IMG/VR virus record: IMGVR_UViG_2684622620_000011
Location: 1-9,345 of that record
DNA from: a virus
Taxonomy: Duplodnaviria; Heunggongvirae; Uroviricota; Caudoviricetes
Length of the DNA: 9,345 nt
Direction: 5' to 3' (one strand)
Below, piece by piece: positions 1 through 6,737 of the stretch; the first letter of the stretch is position 1; every line of letters begins with the position of its first letter. The notes beneath the pieces were generated by a model, which made no database searches, was not told the origin of the DNA, and saw only the letters and a list, made by a program, of their open reading frames with translations. The translations under genes and the position numbers were made by a program.

Positions 1-25
1 TGAACCGCCCCGGGTTTCCTGGAGA
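1..25. repeat. Terminal inverted repeat of the left IS copy (orfB-proximal end)
   Basis: TGAACCGCCCCGGGTTTCCTGGAGA matches the reverse complement of 1286..1310 at about 22 of 25 positions; positions 1-13 and 17-25 are identical. Confidence 0.8.
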
Positions 26-42
26 GTGTTTTATCTGTGAAC

Positions 43-933
43 TCAGGCTGCCAGATCATCGTTTCCGATGGAAGCATAATAAGCTTTTTCTGCTTCTGCC
101 GGAGGAGTATGGCCCAGCCTTCCCAGCAATCGTCGATTGTTATACCAGTCCACCCACGTTAGTGTGGCCAGTTCCACTTCTGCACGGTTTTTCCAGCTCT
201 TACGGTGTATTACCTCCGCTTTGTAAAGACCATTGATGCTCTCAGCCATCGCGTTGTCATACGAGTCGCCTGTACTCCCTGTTGATGCCAGTAATCCGGC
301 TTCTTTTAGTCGCTCCGTATAGGCCAGTGACACATACTGAGAGCCTTTATCGCTGTGATGGATGGTGCCAGACGGACGACGGGCCCACAACGCCTGCTCC
401 AGCGCATCCAGCACGAATGTCGTTTCCATAGACGATGAGACCCGCCACCCCACGATGTATCCGGCAAACACATCAATGATAAACGCCACATAGACGAAGC
501 CCTGCCATGTGCTGACGTAAGTAAAATCAGCCACCCACAGCTGGTCAGGTCGTTCTGCCACGAACTGACGGTTTACGCGGTCGCCTGCGGCAACGGCTTT
601 CCGGCTGATGGTCGTACGGACCTTTTTACCCCGGAGAACACCGGCAAGTCCCATAACCGCCATGAGACGTGCCACTGTACATCTGGCCACCCTGATTCCT
701 TCCCGTAACAACTGACGCCAGACTTTACGCACACCGTACACCTGATGATTTTCATCGTATACGCGCTGTATCTCTCTCTTCAGCCAGTCGTCGTGCTGCG
801 CACGGGCACTGCGTTTATCCGGATGATGTCGCTGTTGCTGACAATGGTAATACGTTGACGGGGCAATATGCAGTTCGCTGCATACCGGTCCGACCCCGTA
901 CTGCTCACGCAGCTTATCCAGCAGTGGCATCAT
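43..933 (-). CDS. IS3-family transposase OrfB (DDE/integrase catalytic domain), 296 aa
   Basis: ATG start overlaps the orfA stop by 4 nt (ATGA). Protein shows integrase-core hallmarks (W..DFTY, HSD.GSQY, ...[10 protein letters not shown]). Identical to the ORF at 8413..9303. Confidence 0.9.
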
Positions 934-1256
934 TTTTTCCAGAGGCGGTCGAACTCCGCCTTCGCAAAATAAGCGGAAGCCTGGCGAAGGATATCGTTAC
1001 TGCGGCGCAGTTCACGATTTTCACGTTCCAGCTCTTTCAGACGCTGACGTTCAGCGCTGGTGAGCCCACCATCACCGCCCCCGGTATCCCGCTCATGCTG
1101 GCGAACCCAGACACGCAGAGTCTCCGGCGTACAGCCAATCTTTGGGGCAATGGAACAAATTGCCGCCCACTGTGAGTCATATTCATCCTGACTTTCCAGA
1201 ACCATACGAATCGCCCGCTGACGGACTTCGGGGGAAAAACGAGTATTTTTAGTCAT
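930..1256 (-). CDS. IS3-family transposase OrfA (HTH and leucine-zipper DNA-binding subunit), 108 aa
   Basis: Starts [22 protein letters not shown]... with a helix-turn-helix region and a heptad Leu repeat ([18 protein letters not shown]). Identical to the ORF at 8090..8416. Confidence 0.9.
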
Positions 1257-1285
1257 CCTGTTTACCTCTTTCTCAGGGAGTTTAG

Positions 1286-1310
1286 TCTCCAGGATTTCCG
1301 GGGCGGTTCA
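1286..1310. repeat. Terminal inverted repeat of the left IS copy (orfA-proximal end)
   Basis: Reverse complement reads TGAACCGCCCCGGAAATCCTGGAGA, an imperfect match to 1..25. Confidence 0.8.
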
Positions 1311-1619
1311 AATTGAAGTAAGTTCATTTTTAGGTGAAGGAGTGATATCTTCGCTTCCAAAGATCATATCTTGGTATTGTGCCCAATTTTGGCGAATTTC
1401 GAAATACATATCAACATCATAATCCTGCCCTCTTAGTTCATCATCTGAAGATATATTCAATGTCTTTTTGAGACCGATGATGTTAAAGATCCACTTCTTA
1501 CCACCTTTAATGAAGTATGCCCCAGTATATGCCTCTTCATCTGGTACAGCCTCATAACCTAAATTTAATGCTAATTGTATCTGTTCTGCTAATGTAAAAG
1601 GCTCTTTCCATCCACTCAT
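1308..1619 (-). CDS. Hypothetical small protein (103 aa as read), probably 3'-truncated by the IS insertion
   Basis: ATG at 1619..1617 with an AGGTAGGT Shine-Dalgarno-like sequence upstream. The in-frame stop TGA is formed by the last 3 nt of the IS terminus (1308..1310), so the native C-terminus is probably missing. AT-rich codon usage like the neighbouring 221-aa gene. No recognisable domain. Confidence 0.55.
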   Translation of the reverse strand: MSGWKEPFTLAEQIQLALNLGYEAVPDEEAYTGAYFIKGGKKWIFNIIGLKKTLNISSDDELRGQDYDVDMYFEIRQNWAQYQDMIFGSEDITPSPKNELTSI

Positions 1620-1707
1620 AGCTTATTACCTACCTGTGAACCTGTTTGCTGCATGAAAAACAATATAATAAAGCGTTATTGAAGACTATGATCCAAGTAA
1701 ATTTAAT

Positions 1708-1730
1708 CAAATACGTTTATAACGTATTTG
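1708..1730. promoter_or_regulatory. Perfect 10-bp inverted repeat with a 3-bp spacer (CAAATACGTT-TAT-AACGTATTTG), candidate operator
   Basis: Arms 1708..1717 and 1721..1730 are exact reverse complements. It lies about 90 nt upstream of the 1619 start codon, in the 320-bp intergenic region between the two AT-rich genes. Confidence 0.35.
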
Positions 1731-1939
1731 CCTAAACAACTTCCAACGTATGATCCGCTTCTCGCTCTCAGCAGACCTTTATCTGCAGGTGCTTGTCTGC
1801 TGTGTTCCAGAAGCAGATATTATTATATAACTCTTTAACCCATGTATGACAAAATATTCTTGGAGCTTATTAAAACTTCATACGTCTAAATCACCTCTTC
1901 ATTAGTGAATCAATAATTGTATAGTTAAAATGTAACACT

Positions 1940-2605
1940 TTATTTTTTATGATTAACTTGCTTTGCTAAAGAGCTATAAATCATATCAACCAAAACATAT
2001 TTTTCGCATTCCCAAGGTTCACTAATAGATGGGTTTACTAAGTCTGGCTTCCCCCCCATTAGTGTATGAACATGCGAATAAATACCTATTCTTTCTGCGA
2101 GCTGCATTATTTTTATTTGATGTTCTGGTGGGAGCATTTTGTTTTTAAACCATGTTGTAAATATATGCTTGGTAAGTTCCTTAGTACAAACAAACCATTC
2201 ACCTTGACGTCTTTCGTTGCTAAATTTTTCATGAAGATAGTTTTCTTTTTCTGAACCACCTGGTTCCAAAGCGTGTAATATTAATTGACCAAATGCACCT
2301 GTCTGCAGGTTAGACAACCTTTTTAGCACATTATTGGAACGCCCTATTTTCACATAAAGTCCCGAGTAAGGGTTATTTTTATCTGAAGAACCGGCCCAAG
2401 TATCAGGCACTTGTAAAATATAATAAATACTACTTACTTTCCCACTCGATACATTATTTGCCCAAATCTGCCATTCTTCCATCCAGCTTTTTGCATCTTC
2501 TCTCGTGTCAAAGGCATGACTTGTATAGTAAAATTCACCAGTATCCAAGAACATATCGAAAACATATTTGCCATTCTCTATAATTCTTAAGTTGTCGGCT
2601 TTCAT
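1940..2605 (-). CDS. T5orf172/MUG113-domain (GIY-YIG superfamily) protein, 221 aa, with N- and C-terminal extensions of unknown function
   Basis: Central motifs IYYIL...GLYVKIGRSNNVLKRLSNLQTG...YLHEKFSNERRQGEWF fit the T5orf172 pattern (G-x-Y-K-I-G, R-x-x-x-L, H-x-x-F...R-x-GEWF). ATG at 2605 with a GAGA-type ribosome-binding site. Gene and flanks are strongly AT-rich compared with the rest of the window. Confidence 0.75.
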   Translation of the reverse strand: MKADNLRIIENGKYVFDMFLDTGEFYYTSHAFDTREDAKSWMEEWQIWANNVSSGKVSSIYYILQVPDTWAGSSDKNNPYSGLYVKIGRSNNVLKRLSNLQTGAFGQLILHALEPGGSEKENYLHEKFSNERRQGEWFVCTKELTKHIFTTWFKNKMLPPEHQIKIMQLAERIGIYSHVHTLMGGKPDLVNPSISEPWECEKYVLVDMIYSSLAKQVNHKK

Positions 2606-2809
2606 GGAAGTTTCTCACAAAGTTACAGGAATATATAAAAACTTTACTACGCTTAGTATATATTACCACCTGATTATGTATTATTTGATTTACACAACTT
2701 ATTGCTAGTAATAACGGTTTTGATGTAATCTTCTCATCCCAAACTAACCTTCAAAATAGATTTAATCTAAATTATATCAAAATATGCTCTCAGTTAAGAT
2801 GGCTTATTT

Positions 2810-3007
2810 TTAATCAGTTAGAGGATCAACCTGATTTTCTCTAATAAGATTTCGTAACGCAGTACGAGCAGCCGCGACTTCTGTCATTCCATTTAGAACC
2901 ACGCTGGAATGCCCTCCTCTAACCCCAAAGACTGTGACCATATCCTCTTCACGGAAGTATTCTGCTTCATACTGAAGGCCATCTTTCTCTACGCGAATAT
3001 ATGACAT
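2810..3007 (-). CDS. Hypothetical small protein, 65 aa
   Basis: ATG at 3007 preceded by GAGG about 6-9 nt upstream. Composition is like the phage backbone, not the AT-rich block. No recognisable motif. Confidence 0.5.
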   Translation of the reverse strand: MSYIRVEKDGLQYEAEYFREEDMVTVFGVRGGHSSVVLNGMTEVAAARTALRNLIRENQVDPLTD

Positions 3008-3633
3008 AACAACCTCATTTTATTATCTTTTGTTTGAATGATATATCCACAAAATAATTTAAGCAATCTCGCCCAAGACGGTACGCCAAGCTTGCCTTGT
3101 AAGTATACTGTAAATATTCCGATAAAACTAATCATTCGCTTTTAGCGCATGTCCAAAAAATGGTTCAGGTATCCTATCGTGCCAATATTCGCTCCTCACT
3201 CATAGCGGCTTTCAGGCAAGTTAACTAGTCCGCTCGGTGCCATATAGAGCCATGGTTATTAACAGCAGGGAATAATTCCACACTGAAATTAAATGTCTAC
3301 CTTTTACAGTAGAAATAGTTCCTCCAGGACACTATCCATTGCCGGGCACAATCACTCGGGGTATAACGATATAAAATATGTTCATGATAGTGCAGGTTCG
3401 TATATTAAGTTCAGCAGCGAAAACATGCCTTACAGGTTTCCGGTTTTGGGAGCGTCGTTACAGGATCCTGTGCATACCGTTCCCATCTGTTGAATTAAAG
3501 GTTTCACAGCCTTTGCCGATATCACCTTTTACCTTGCCTGTGATGCGTTCAGTGCTCAGCGTTGTTTACTGTAGCTCTCGGAACTGATTACAGACCGCGT
3601 CTTAAAAACCAATCCTTACTCTAAAGGGAATTC

Positions 3634-4557
3634 ATGAGATTAAAATACTCAGTACTCTTACTCGCCATTGCCCTTACAGGCTGTGATAACAAAAAAGATG
3701 AGATCGGTTGTTCTTCGGAAATGACCCAATCAGCTCTCATGGATTTATTAAAAAAATCTGCTTATGAAGGACTCTCTGAACAGGTCGATAAATACCCTGA
3801 TGTCACTAATCAGACCAAACGAAGCACACTGGACAAGATCAAACTAGCCGTCTCTGAAATCTCCACAACATCAAGTGACACGGGCAGCACAATGAAAACT
3901 TGTGAAGGGACCGTGACGATGACTCTACCTGCGAACGAGTACATCCAGCTTTCTGATGCTTACCGAAAGAATTTTAATCGTAATCTCGATAAGCAAATGG
4001 AAAATCTGTTTTTGGAGAACAACGCAAACGCCTTTTCAAAACGTATCACCTACACCGTGCAGGCGACCGACGATCAGAAAAACGTTTTTGTAAAAACCTC
4101 TTCTGATAATCCGATATCAGTGGGCGCCGCTTTACTGACATCGCTTTCCATTATCAACCCGATCGTTGAGCAGCAGAAAATCCAGCAGGCTAAGGATGCC
4201 CAACAGAGTCAAATTGAAGCGGAACAACAGGTGCAACTCAGGGCACAGGAACAGGCCAGGTATGAGGCGGAGAAGCAAATAGAGAGGCAGGCACAACTTC
4301 AGCCGCAAAAAGCTGAAAGCCTTGATCAGTCCCGAATGGCATTTGCGAATGCTGACTCTGATTTGAATACAGTCTGGGGCAGGTTAACGCCGGCGAAGAA
4401 AAAAGAGTTGCTGCCTTCTCAGCGTCAGTGGATCAAAACTAAGGATGCTATGTGCGGTAAAGTTTCAATGCAGGGAACAGATGCTGAAGTCAAGAAAATG
4501 GTCGACTGCCAGACGCAAATGACCCTTTCAAGAATCGCTTTCCTCAGAAACCAATAA
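3634..4557 (+). CDS. Lipoprotein with a Q-rich coiled-coil middle and a C-terminal DUF1311/LprI-like domain, 307 aa
   Basis: N-terminus MRLKYSVLLLAIALTGC has a signal peptide and lipobox (LTG-C). C-terminus LLPSQRQWIKTKDAMC...VDCQTQMTLSRIAFL matches the DUF1311 signature (Q-x-x-W-x-x-x-R-D-x-x-C ... C ... T-x-x-R). AAGGGA ribosome-binding site 7-8 nt upstream of the ATG. The only long plus-strand gene in the insert. Confidence 0.8.
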   Translation: MRLKYSVLLLAIALTGCDNKKDEIGCSSEMTQSALMDLLKKSAYEGLSEQVDKYPDVTNQTKRSTLDKIKLAVSEISTTSSDTGSTMKTCEGTVTMTLPANEYIQLSDAYRKNFNRNLDKQMENLFLENNANAFSKRITYTVQATDDQKNVFVKTSSDNPISVGAALLTSLSIINPIVEQQKIQQAKDAQQSQIEAEQQVQLRAQEQARYEAEKQIERQAQLQPQKAESLDQSRMAFANADSDLNTVWGRLTPAKKKELLPSQRQWIKTKDAMCGKVSMQGTDAEVKKMVDCQTQMTLSRIAFLRNQ

Positions 4558-4571
4558 CTGAAGTTTCCTTC

Positions 4572-4605
4572 AAGCTGGCGCCTGGTGTTAACCTGGTGCC
4601 AGCTT
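4572..4605. terminator. Candidate hairpin between the convergent lipoprotein and anti-repressor genes
   Basis: AAGCTGGCGCC...GGTGCCAGCTT forms an 11-bp stem (one G.U pair) with a 12-nt loop containing GTTAAC. No clear U-tract on either strand, so the terminator call is weak. Confidence 0.3.
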
Positions 4606-4734
4606 AGTCATCAAGTACATACGTAACAGTTTTACATGGGCGGTACTTTGACAGAGTATTCGGCCTCGTGCTGGTTGTGACTAAATACCTTTTTAAGCGC
4701 AAATAGAGTATAACCGCGCCAAACATTCAACCTG

Positions 4735-5523
4735 TCAAAATGCTGAATCAGCAACGGATACAACCGACTTTTTCCCCATTACCATCAATTTATCCAGCGT
4801 CATACTTCGCAGGTTGTCGCTGTGGATCACCAGATACCCTGCCCGCTCAGCGATCTCTTTGAAAGCGTCAAACGTCATCAGATGTTCGCCTTTGGCAACA
4901 TGGCGCATCCTGGTCACTTTTCCATTTTTGATAGTGGTGATAAAAGAAAAATCTGGAATGGTTGGCTGATTTTCATCGAGTAGCAGGCAGTGGATGTATT
5001 CAATCGCCTCTAACATTTGCGTCTGTGACAGTTGTTCTATGTGAGAGACGGCGAAGCGTTGATGAATCATGGTGTAGGCATCGGGATACATCATGCCTTT
5101 CTTACCGACCAGCATATTAACGGCATCACGTAAGGGAGTACGGTCATCGGTAGTTGTACTCCGCCTCTCTGGACGCTGTCTAAAATAACAATCTTCCAGC
5201 TTTTCGAAAACTTCCCAGGCCTGTTCTGTTTCCAGCATTTTGGCATGGCGAGCTGCGCCGCGTTCTGTCCAGAGAATGAGGGATCGGGTATGTTTAGCAA
5301 CTGACTGACTATCTGTCAGTCTGTTTTTGAAGTCGCGTAATTCATTACCTTCCAGCTTAAAAAAATGCTTTCCTACGACAAATCTGGCGATGTTGCGCTT
5401 GAAGTTTTGCTGGATACCATTTACTTCCGTGCCATACAAACTGGCAAGCAATTCAGTAGTGATGACGGGAAGTTGGTTATGATGTAGCGGAGAAAGGGAT
5501 TCCGCAGATATTTGGATTGTCAT
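4735..5523 (-). CDS. Phage anti-repressor-like regulatory protein (ORF6N/KilA-type N-terminal domain), about 262 aa
   Basis: The N-terminal region (...ELLASLYGTEVNGIQQNFKRNIARFVVGKHFFKLEGNELRDF...WTERGAARHAKML...) resembles ORF6N-type anti-repressor domains. Start chosen at ATG 5523 (MTIQ...), which has GTGAGG 8 nt upstream. The ORF track extends the frame to 5571, but that start is a TTG; another ATG at 5553 has poorer spacing. Confidence 0.65.
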   Translation of the reverse strand: MTIQISAESLSPLHHNQLPVITTELLASLYGTEVNGIQQNFKRNIARFVVGKHFFKLEGNELRDFKNRLTDSQSVAKHTRSLILWTERGAARHAKMLETEQAWEVFEKLEDCYFRQRPERRSTTTDDRTPLRDAVNMLVGKKGMMYPDAYTMIHQRFAVSHIEQLSQTQMLEAIEYIHCLLLDENQPTIPDFSFITTIKNGKVTRMRHVAKGEHLMTFDAFKEIAERAGYLVIHSDNLRSMTLDKLMVMGKKSVVSVADSAF

Positions 5524-5683
5524 CGCAGTGGCCTCACTTAGTGTTTTTTTCATCACCACCAGCGACGCCAATCATCTGGTGGTGAACTGTGCAGGGTTGG
5601 CGTAACCGGCTAAGTGAACCCGGCGCTTCCGCAGAAGCCCCCACACAGCCCACCATAATGCGAATGTGGCCGTGCCTAACACA

Positions 5684-5707
5684 TAAAAAAACCGCTAACG
5701 CGGCTAT
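5684..5707 (-). terminator. Candidate rho-independent terminator (minus strand) downstream of the small-gene operon
   Basis: Minus strand reads AGCCGCGTTAGCGG followed by TTTTTTT. The stem is short (4 G-C pairs plus possible G.U/A-U) with a 4-nt loop and a T7 tract, about 100 nt after the stop of the 5796..6017 ORF. Confidence 0.3.
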
Positions 5708-5795
5708 GCGTCACTTAGATATCCGGGACGCCAATCCCGGCAACCGATTTTGCGGCTGCGCGGAAACTATAGCCCCGGGCTTTTTCTAAGTCAAT

Positions 5796-6017
5796 TCAAT
5801 CAACTTCAAACCTCCGGTGTTCACATTCCATACACTCAACGGGAACATCATCGCGATGCAAGTCCACATATCCGACCCGCTTATACAACTCAATAATGTC
5901 CGGTAACGTGACCAGATGTTTTTCCGGTTCCAACACCTCAGCCCTGGTTACTTTGTAATCTGAAATATAGAGCACTATCCGCCCGTTCCGTGGTAACTCC
6001 AGTTTATCGCCAAACAT
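5796..6017 (-). CDS. Hypothetical small phage protein, 73 aa
   Basis: ATG at 6017 with GGAGGGAAAGGA Shine-Dalgarno sequence immediately upstream. Last gene of the minus-strand operon. No recognisable domain; C-terminus has a CxxC (CMEC) pair. Confidence 0.6.
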   Translation of the reverse strand: MFGDKLELPRNGRIVLYISDYKVTRAEVLEPEKHLVTLPDIIELYKRVGYVDLHRDDVPVECMECEHRRFEVD

Positions 6018-6091
6018 GTCCTTTCCCTCCGGGAAACCAATGATATTGACGATATTACACCCACAAAGATTCGTTTTACGTCACTCCGCAA

Positions 6092-6208
6092 TCACCATAC
6101 ATACGTACCAATCCGTACATTCCCACCACAAAAATGGCATTCGGCGGGCACTGGTAATGGATTTTTAACGCGTGCTATTGCCTTGCGACGTATTTTCAAT
6201 TCACTCAT
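6092..6208 (-). CDS. Possible unannotated small ORF, 38 aa (MSELKIRRKAIARVKNPLPVPAECHFCGGNVRIGTYVW)
   Basis: ATG at 6208..6206 overlaps the stop of the upstream ORF (ATGA) and is preceded by GGGAGG 5 nt upstream. Below the 60-aa cutoff of the ORF track. Contains one CxxC pair. Translated by hand. Confidence 0.35.
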   Translation of the reverse strand: MSELKIRRKAIARVKNPLPVPAECHFCGGNVRIGTYVW

Positions 6209-6429
6209 ACAGCCTCCCTGCTCTCAAACGGGCGAATATTGGTTGGTTCTCCACACGGAATGGCCCAACCCAGCCAGGTAAATATTTTCAGATCACACAT
6301 CGCGTCATACCGTTCGCCCGGATTCACATCCACCATGCTGCAGGCAATTTCATATTGTTCACCATTATCAGTCAGTGCGATCTGGTCATTAATAAACCGG
6401 GGCACAAATGCAAGAAAAAGCTCTTTCAT
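6205..6429 (-). CDS. Hypothetical small phage protein, 74 aa
   Basis: ATG at 6429 with GGAGGA Shine-Dalgarno sequence; ATGA overlap with the upstream gene, consistent with translational coupling. Confidence 0.6.
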   Translation of the reverse strand: MKELFLAFVPRFINDQIALTDNGEQYEIACSMVDVNPGERYDAMCDLKIFTWLGWAIPCGEPTNIRPFESREAV

Positions 6430-6737
6430 GAAATCCTCCGCTCAAAATAAACAAACTGATTCACCGCTCCGATCGGCATTTCGAGTTTTTCCGCGATATC
6501 CTGGCGATTAATACCCGACTGATGTAATTCCCTTGCCAGCTCGACATCTTCCTGTAGGTATTTCGCTGACTGGTGATAATTACCCCGCAGATACATACAG
6601 ATTTTCAGCTCGCGCGCTTTTGTGCGTACCGACGCAGCGGTTCTGCCAATAAGCTGCCCTATACTTTCAACTGTCATGCTGCCTGCACATTGTTTGATGA
6701 TTACGACTTCCGCACGCACCCACCGTTTGTATTTCAT
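6426..6737 (-). CDS. Hypothetical phage protein, 103 aa, possibly DNA-binding (two helix-turn-helix-like segments)
   Basis: ATG at 6737 with GGAG upstream; ATGA overlap with the upstream gene. Segments SIGQLIGRTAASVRTKAREL and NRQDIAEKLEMPIGAVNQFV look HTH-like by eye only. Confidence 0.55.
   Translation of the reverse strand: MKYKRWVRAEVVIIKQCAGSMTVESIGQLIGRTAASVRTKARELKICMYLRGNYHQSAKYLQEDVELARELHQSGINRQDIAEKLEMPIGAVNQFVYFERRIS

What the first reader, a model, noticed from the sequence alone, without database searches (positions are those of the whole stretch)
1308..1619. Small ORF whose stop codon is supplied by the IS terminus, so the gene is probably truncated
On the minus strand the ORF ends ...L-T-S-I-stop, and the TGA is the first three bases of the IS inverted repeat (TGAACC..., plus-strand 1308..1310). 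A native stop would not be expected to lie inside the IS, so the insertion has almost certainly cut off the original 3' end. If the ORF is the partner of the T5orf172 gene, this copy of the module is damaged, and an intact version should exist in IS-free relatives.
Basis: seen in the sequence. Interest (0 to 1): 0.55.

Follow-up and report, generated by a model that had tools for sequence, protein, structure and literature searches.

The report
IS629-truncated prophage cargo gene
A copy of the common insertion sequence IS629 has landed inside a small prophage gene of unknown function in E. coli O103:H2, cutting off its last 31 conserved residues and supplying the stop codon; this is an ordinary insertional mutation.

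Summary
The minus-strand ORF 1619..1308 encodes 103 aa (not 102). It ends ...NELTSI-TGA, and that TGA is the first three bases of an IS629/IS1203 end.

Seventeen complete E. coli genomes carry the same prophage without the IS. There the gene is 134 aa, identical over residues 1-103, and continues YHDLQVTDEPREMVYLSDGMWLDPNGRIVQR. Homologues in Proteus, Providencia, Serratia, Citrobacter and Yersinia are also 134 aa. The lost tail evolves under the same purifying selection as the rest of the gene (dN/dS 0.11-0.22). It holds a (V/T)YLSDG(M/V)(W/Y) motif found even in 30%-identical relatives.

The window is one whole draft contig of E. coli O103:H2 PARC445 that ends in IS copies, so the far flank and the target duplication cannot be seen.

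The suggested partnership with the T5orf172 gene is not supported. Outside Escherichia the gene travels alone as a ~0.6-kb single-gene cassette in prophage cargo slots and defence islands.

The protein family has no Pfam, PHROG, NCBIfam, PADLOC, PDB or viral-structure (BFVD) match. Interest in the finding itself is low; the orphan family is a minor lead.

The parts
1..1310 (-). Left IS629/IS1203 copy (IS3 family). orfA is 930-1256(-), 108 aa. orfB is 43-933(-), 296 aa. The orfA-proximal end faces the prophage DNA.
   Evidence: It is 1310 nt with 25-nt terminal inverted repeats, and the two ORFs are listed. It is 99.5-100% identical to copies annotated IS629 or IS1203 in Stx phages and plasmids.
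1308..1310 (-). TGA stop codon of the truncated ORF. These are the first three bases of the IS terminal repeat.
   Evidence: Direct reading of the sequence. The IS-free allele has TAC (Tyr104) at this position.
1311..1619 (-). Codons 1-103 of a 134-codon prophage cargo gene (intact form WP_048963140.1). The N-terminal domain is kept; the C-terminal 31 residues are missing.
   Evidence: 100% identical to residues 1-103 of the 134-aa protein in IS-free prophages.
1620..1939 (-). Upstream intergenic region of the small gene. It contains a perfect 10-bp-stem hairpin (1708-1730) at the edge of the region conserved between genera.
   Evidence: Terminator-like hairpin CAAATACGTTATAAACGTATTTG (L001 9398-9420 corresponds to window 1708-1730). 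Homology to other genera begins about 100-150 nt upstream of the ATG.
1940..2605 (-). Intact upstream neighbour: a 221-aa T5orf172/MUG113 (GIY-YIG-type) protein. It is not a conserved partner of the small gene.
   Evidence: Pfam PF13455 and PF10544 and phrog_8130. It is absent near homologues of the small gene in other genera.
7421..8035 (-). Remnant of the prophage replicative DnaB-type helicase (residues 260-463 of 463), cut by the right IS copy.
   Evidence: DnaB_C domain, E 3.5e-44. The intact 463-aa gene is present in L001 and L015.
8036..9345 (+). Right IS629/IS1203 copy. It is inverted relative to the left copy, and its orfA-proximal end also faces the prophage DNA.

Best explanation
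An IS629 (IS1203-type, IS3 family) element transposed into codon 104 of a 134-codon accessory ("moron") gene of a lambdoid prophage in an E. coli O103:H2 lineage. The IS end begins TGA and happens to be in frame, so translation stops right after Ile103. The product is a 103-aa protein with no IS-encoded residues. It keeps the family's N-terminal domain (about residues 10-87) and lacks the conserved C-terminal segment carrying the ...MVYLSDGMWLDxNGxIVQR motif. Shown here: the junction, the identity of the IS, the 134-aa intact allele, and conservation of and purifying selection on the lost tail. Inferred: the allele is null or strongly impaired. Also inferred: this was a simple insertion with a 3-4 bp duplication, with the 3' remnant lying beyond the IS. 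The gene is a self-contained single-gene cassette, not half of a two-gene module with T5orf172. In the sequenced strain a second IS629 has separately cut the prophage's DnaB-type helicase gene, so the prophage is decaying through IS hits. The two full IS copies at the window ends are the repeat-bounded ends of a short-read contig.
For: The junction and IS structure are. The IS is 99.5-100% identical to annotated IS629/IS1203 copies. Seventeen of 5426 complete E. coli genomes have the uninterrupted 461-bp gene region at 99.3% identity or better, and the annotated 134-aa CDS WP_048963140.1 is seen. The alignment shows 103/103 identity, followed by 31 extra residues in the intact allele. All full-length homologues from six genera are 134 aa, with V117-R134 nearly invariant. 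The C-terminal motif also recurs 14-22 residues from the end in about 25 of 92 distant representatives, including 16 of the 20 best hits. dN/dS is 0.13-0.19 for the whole gene and 0.11-0.22 for codons 104-134. The same junction occurs in other assemblies whose DnaB gene is intact (463 aa), so the two IS hits are separate events. The interior 1310-8035 is 100% colinear with the IS-free prophage in APEC20/16. In O157:H7 genomes 62% of IS629 copies lie in prophages, with 3-4 bp duplications (PMC3271280).
Against: The far side of the IS is not in the window or in any retrieved contig. A target duplication and survival of the 3' remnant are therefore unverified, and an IS-mediated deletion or rearrangement cannot be excluded. 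Loss of function is inferred only. The N-terminal domain is an autonomous unit in many relatives that lack the C-terminal motif, so the 103-aa product might keep some activity. The function of the protein is unknown.
Confidence: 0.9

Rival explanations
1. The break is not a simple insertion. An IS629-mediated deletion, an inversion between the two inverted IS copies, or mobilisation of a composite transposon has removed or relocated the 3' end of the gene.
For: Two identical IS629 copies in inverted orientation flank 6725 bp. The outer flanks are not in the contig. The 3' remnant is nowhere in the window. No gene fragment corresponding to the remnant appeared among the homologues. IS629-driven deletions are known from established literature on O157 (Ooka 2009, as cited in PMC3271280).
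Against: The interior is 100% colinear with the native prophage, so the segment has not moved to a new context. Related strains carry only the left insertion with an intact DnaB gene, which points to two sequential simple insertions. The 100% identity of the two arms is expected from repeat collapse in a short-read assembly. The remnant would not be called as a gene anyway, because it has no start codon after the in-frame TAA near the IS end (sequence).
Confidence: 0.12
2. The truncated 103-aa protein is still functional, because the conserved N-terminal domain is intact. On this reading the insertion is nearly neutral rather than a knockout.
For: The N-terminal block (about residues 10-77) is the part shared by most of the 93 family representatives, and roughly two thirds of them lack the C-terminal motif. 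The AF2 model is most confident for residues 11-80, with block-mean pLDDT 84-92. The allele persists in several sequenced strains.
Against: Within the 134-aa subfamily the tail is nearly invariant and evolves under purifying selection as strong as in the rest of the gene. Many of the short representatives are probably fragments from short metagenomic contigs. The insertion also separates the gene from its native 3' end.
Confidence: 0.2
3. The ORF is the functional partner of the upstream T5orf172/GIY-YIG gene, so the IS has crippled a two-gene module.
For: The two genes are adjacent and co-oriented, and they co-occur in all 18 complete E. coli genomes that have either one and in E. whittamii.
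Against: All Escherichia copies are 98-100% identical to one another across the two-gene cassette, so they count as a single observation. In Proteus, Serratia, Citrobacter, Enterobacter and metagenomic relatives, no T5orf172 or MUG113 gene lies within 4-6 kb. Inter-genus nucleotide homology covers only the small gene plus about 100-150 nt upstream and about 83 nt downstream, and stops short of T5orf172. A 320-nt spacer with a hairpin separates the two genes.
Confidence: 0.07

Closest known systems
IS629/IS1203 insertional inactivation of prophage genes in EHEC/STEC (e.g. O157:H7; PMC3271280)
   Same: It is the same element: 1310 bp, TGAACC... ends, orfA and orfB, and 99.5-100% identity. The target class is also the same, since IS629 lies mostly in prophages. 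The outcome matches too: a disrupted ORF and a decaying prophage.
   Different: The host is an O103:H2 phylogroup B1 strain, and the target is a previously undescribed gene. The target duplication could not be verified.
Prophage morons (self-contained accessory gene cassettes with their own promoter and terminator, typically of low GC)
   Same: A module of about 0.6 kb is shared between genera. It sits at different positions: the lambdoid early-right region, a P2-like prophage end, next to int/xis, and after tail-fibre genes. The region has low GC, 31-39% against 47-56% in the rest of the prophage.
   Different: No promoter or terminator was demonstrated. The consensus scan found only a hairpin upstream. 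No phenotype is known.
T5orf172 (PF10544) / MUG113 GIY-YIG-type nuclease genes
   Same: The neighbouring gene, 1940-2605, belongs to this family.
   Different: The truncated ORF itself has no similarity to this family and is not linked to it outside Escherichia.

Membership tests
IS629/IS1203 (IS3 family) | About 1310 bp with roughly 25-bp imperfect terminal inverted repeats beginning TGAAC | tested here: met
   Each copy is 1310 nt, and the 25-nt ends are 88% complementary.
IS629/IS1203 (IS3 family) | Two overlapping transposase ORFs: orfA of 108 aa (HTH_Tnp_1) and orfB of 296 aa (rve integrase core) | tested here: met
   The ORFs 930-1256 and 43-933 overlap by 4 nt. Their Pfam families are listed.
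IS629/IS1203 (IS3 family) | Near-identity to reference copies annotated as IS629 or IS1203 | tested here: met
   99.5% identity to the IS629 feature of phage VT1-Sakai. 100% identity to copies in phages PA4 and PA5 and in plasmids annotated IS1203.
IS629/IS1203 (IS3 family) | A 3-4 bp target-site duplication flanking the element | not testable with these tools
   The window is a whole contig that ends at the outer IS ends. The expected duplication is ATT on the minus strand (AAT on the plus strand), possibly with one more base.
134-aa orphan family (WP_048963140.1-like) | N-terminal conserved block ALxLGY...AYxGxYFIKxGKKWIxxI..LK...EL...(G/D)YDVDxY | tested here: met
   Window residues 1-103 are identical to the intact protein. 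The conserved block is shown.
134-aa orphan family (WP_048963140.1-like) | C-terminal (V/T)YLSDG(M/V)(W/Y)-L..xG.I motif 14-22 residues from the end | tested here: not met
   The motif is absent from the window copy because of the IS. It is present in all 15 full-length close homologues and in about 25 distant representatives.
Two-gene module with T5orf172 | Conserved adjacency of the two genes across independent lineages | tested here: not met
   The genes are adjacent only in the single Escherichia cassette. T5orf172 is absent near the small gene in five other genera or contexts.
Composite transposon | The IS-flanked segment is found in a non-native context, with a duplication flanking the whole unit | tested here: not met
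   The interior is 100% colinear with the native prophage. Relatives carry only one of the two IS copies. The outer duplication is not testable.
Known anti-phage defence proteins (PADLOC-DB v2) | A significant match to a defence-system HMM | tested here: not met
   The 134-aa protein has no PADLOC hit.

The most novel reading that the evidence does not exclude
Probability: 0.25. Interest if true: 0.45.

Novelty: new member of a known kind. Interest (0 to 1): 0.17.

Why it matters
As an event it matters little. It is one more example of IS629 eroding prophages in STEC-related E. coli, and a reminder that ORFs ending at an IS terminus are truncation products that should be annotated as pseudogenes. 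Two practical points follow. First, the window is a repeat-bounded draft contig, so its composite-transposon look is an assembly effect. Second, the T5orf172 gene next door is intact and does not depend on this ORF, judging by gene context in other genera. The only forward-looking value is that the disrupted gene belongs to a conserved, wholly uncharacterised family of mobile-element cargo proteins. That family could be tested for a role in phage exclusion.

Tried and rejected
- **Function by sequence.** I looked for a known function of the 134-aa protein in Pfam, including E up to 10 and 38 family members. I also tried PHROGs, PADLOC, NCBIfam and a PDB sequence profile. Nothing was found.
- **The window in complete records.** No E. 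coli complete genome, phage or plasmid record contains either junction.
- **The far flank of the IS.** The source contig and the Logan contigs all stop in the IS. No partial product of the 31-aa remnant appeared among the homologues, and the remnant sequence is not in the window.
- **Other tool attempts.** With alignment A3 it gave only two genome loci.
- **Rejected readings.** A natural stop at residue 103 is rejected, as are an assembly chimera, a composite transposon carrying the cassette, and an obligate T5orf172 partnership.

Full report
**Observation.** The window consists of three parts: a 1310-bp insertion sequence at 1-1310, 6725 bp of other DNA, and an identical inverted copy of the IS at 8036-9345. 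The two arms are 100% complementary, and each has 25-nt imperfect terminal repeats beginning TGAACCGCCCCGG. Each copy has a 108-aa orfA and a 296-aa orfB. The copies are 99.5-100% identical to elements annotated IS629 or IS1203 in Stx phages and E. coli plasmids.

On the minus strand an ORF starts at ATG 1619 and reads ...AAT GAA CTT ACT TCA ATT TGA. That TGA (1310-1308) is the first three bases of the IS end.

An immediate in-frame stop has a prior chance of one in three, because the IS end begins TGA. Read directly, the other two frames would run 9 or 16 codons into the IS before a TAA. The feature is real but statistically unremarkable.

**Origin of the window.** The exact 103-aa product is on record in seven contigs. 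One of them, LECG01000026.1 of GCA_001309675.1, is 9345 bp long and is the reverse complement of the window. That assembly is the 158-contig draft of E. coli O103:H2 PARC445, phylogroup B1 (PMC4563881).

The window is therefore a whole short-read contig bounded by a repeated element. This explains the perfectly identical arms. It also means that nothing beyond the IS copies can be inspected.

Two independent Logan assemblies (SRR33975075 and SRR6112177) show the identical junction ...ACTTCAATT|TGAACCGCCCCGG and then stop 28-29 nt into the IS. The junction is thus genuine and shared by several strains. In those two assemblies the prophage DnaB-type helicase is intact at 463 aa. In the window it is cut by the right IS, leaving residues 260-463. 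The two insertions were separate events, and the one in the small gene is shared more widely.

**Is the gene truncated?** Yes. The DNA 1311-2700 occurs in 18 of 5426 complete E. coli genomes at 99% identity or better. In 17 of them the full gene region is uninterrupted. It is annotated as the 134-aa hypothetical protein WP_048963140.1.

The window product is identical to residues 1-103 of that protein. The intact protein continues YHDLQVTDEPREMVYLSDGMWLDPNGRIVQR. At the DNA level the IS-free allele reads ATT TAC CAT... where the window reads ATT TGA ACC....

A search of 5.8 billion proteins found only 24 clusters, from E. coli, Proteus, Providencia, Serratia, Citrobacter and Yersinia. Every full-length member is 134 aa. 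Residues 115-134 are almost invariant.

Pairwise dN/dS against four genera is 0.13-0.19 for the whole gene and 0.11-0.22 for codons 104-134. The gene is therefore real, and the lost tail is selected as protein.

A profile search of 1.84 billion representatives found 93 more distant relatives. They share an N-terminal block (about residues 10-77). About 25 of them, including most of the best hits, also carry a C-terminal (V/T)YL(S/E)(D/G)G.(Y/W) motif 14-22 residues from the end.

The IS has thus removed a conserved, family-defining C-terminal element and left the N-terminal domain whole. Loss of function is a reasonable inference but was not shown. Many relatives carry the N-terminal domain without this tail.

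**Context.** In E. coli the gene lies in the early-right region of a lambdoid prophage. It sits between a T5orf172/MUG113 gene on one side and a divergently oriented gene pair (a 201-aa hypothetical protein and an ImmA/IrrE peptidase) on the other. The stretch has 31-39% GC, against 47-56% elsewhere in the prophage.

Homologues in other genera lie in different places:
- Proteus mirabilis: next to prophage int/xis, followed by a DUF3800 protein and ApeA-HEPN.
- Serratia: between a LysR regulator and an SMC_N ATPase.
- Citrobacter: at the ogr/gpD end of a P2-like prophage.
- Another Proteus: after tail-fibre genes.
- Enterobacter: between two ~930-aa proteins (one with a weak AAA ATPase match) and a type I restriction R subunit.
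- A metagenomic relative: one of three genes on a tandemly assembled ~2.8-kb unit, with a resolvase and a YagK/YfjJ-type protein.

None of these loci has a T5orf172 or MUG113 gene within 4-6 kb.

Nucleotide homology between the E. coli copy and the Citrobacter, Serratia and Proteus copies covers only about 100-150 nt upstream, the gene, and about 83 nt downstream. That is 590-640 bp at 81-84% identity, and it stops short of T5orf172. A perfect 10-bp-stem hairpin (window 1708-1730) marks the upstream edge.

The gene is thus a self-contained single-gene cassette (a moron). The co-occurrence with T5orf172 in Escherichia reflects one recently shared cassette, 98-100% identical across those genomes. 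The T5orf172 gene itself is intact.

**Mechanism and rivals.** The best explanation is a simple IS629 transposition into codon 104, giving a truncated and probably inactive product (confidence about 0.9 for the truncation).

IS629 favours prophages: 62% of copies in O157:H7 lie in them, and it makes 3-4 bp duplications (PMC3271280). The expected duplication here is ATT on the minus strand (AAT on the plus strand), possibly with one more base, but it cannot be checked.

An IS-mediated deletion or inversion remains possible (about 0.12), because the 3' remnant was not found. A composite transposon is unlikely. The interior is 100% colinear with the native prophage of strain APEC20/16, and relatives have only one of the two IS copies.

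The truncated gene and the IS transposase genes point the same way. Transcription from the prophage gene could therefore read into orfA. This is inference only.

**Verdict.** The observation and its main interpretation are right, and the event is ordinary. Interest is low. A modest lead is that the interrupted gene belongs to a conserved, entirely uncharacterised family of mobile-element cargo proteins often found beside defence genes. The same gene is also independently interrupted by IS1 in another E. coli strain.

Noticed in passing
window 1-9345 (= LECG01000026.1, whole contig): The window is a complete 9345-bp draft contig of E. coli O103:H2 PARC445, bounded by full IS629 copies. The composite-transposon appearance and the 100% identical arms are what a repeat-bounded short-read contig looks like. 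They do not show a mobile unit.
   Followed up: yes
window 7421-8035 (-) and junction 8035/8036: The prophage replicative DnaB-type helicase is cut by the second IS629, leaving residues 260-463 of 463. An open frame runs from inside the IS into the remnant and was called as a 226-aa gene in the public annotation. Related strains with the left IS have an intact helicase.
   Followed up: yes
[not shown]
   Followed up: partly
window 1708-1730: A perfect 10-bp-stem hairpin, CAAATACGTTATAAACGTATTTG, lies between T5orf172 and the small gene, at the edge of the inter-genus conserved cassette. It could be a terminator for T5orf172 or an operator.
   Followed up: no
window 1311-3200: A low-GC island (31-39%) holds three minus-strand genes: the small gene, T5orf172 and a 65-aa ORF with no family match. 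In the related prophage of strain BCE-1 (L004) this slot holds a different gene plus an IS3-family element, so it is a variable cargo slot.
   Followed up: partly
L027 (JGI 3300007505 contig, 6558 bp): A 162-aa relative of the small protein is one of three genes (resolvase, family member, YagK/YfjJ_C protein) on a unit of about 2.8 kb assembled as tandem copies. This suggests a tiny circular plasmid-like element.
   Followed up: no
L024 (Enterobacter sp. BIGb0383) 268-10385; L005 (Proteus mirabilis) 4747-7689: Family members lie beside defence-type genes. In Enterobacter these are two ~930-aa proteins (one with a weak AAA_16 match), a YgjP-like peptidase and a type I restriction HsdR. In Proteus they are DUF3800 and ApeA-HEPN.
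   Followed up: partly
window 3634-4557 (+) and 4735-5571 (-): An LprI-family (lysozyme inhibitor) lipoprotein-like gene lies on the opposite strand, next to an ORF6N-domain protein that weakly matches PADLOC candidate PDC-S05. Both are further prophage cargo genes not examined here.
   Followed up: no
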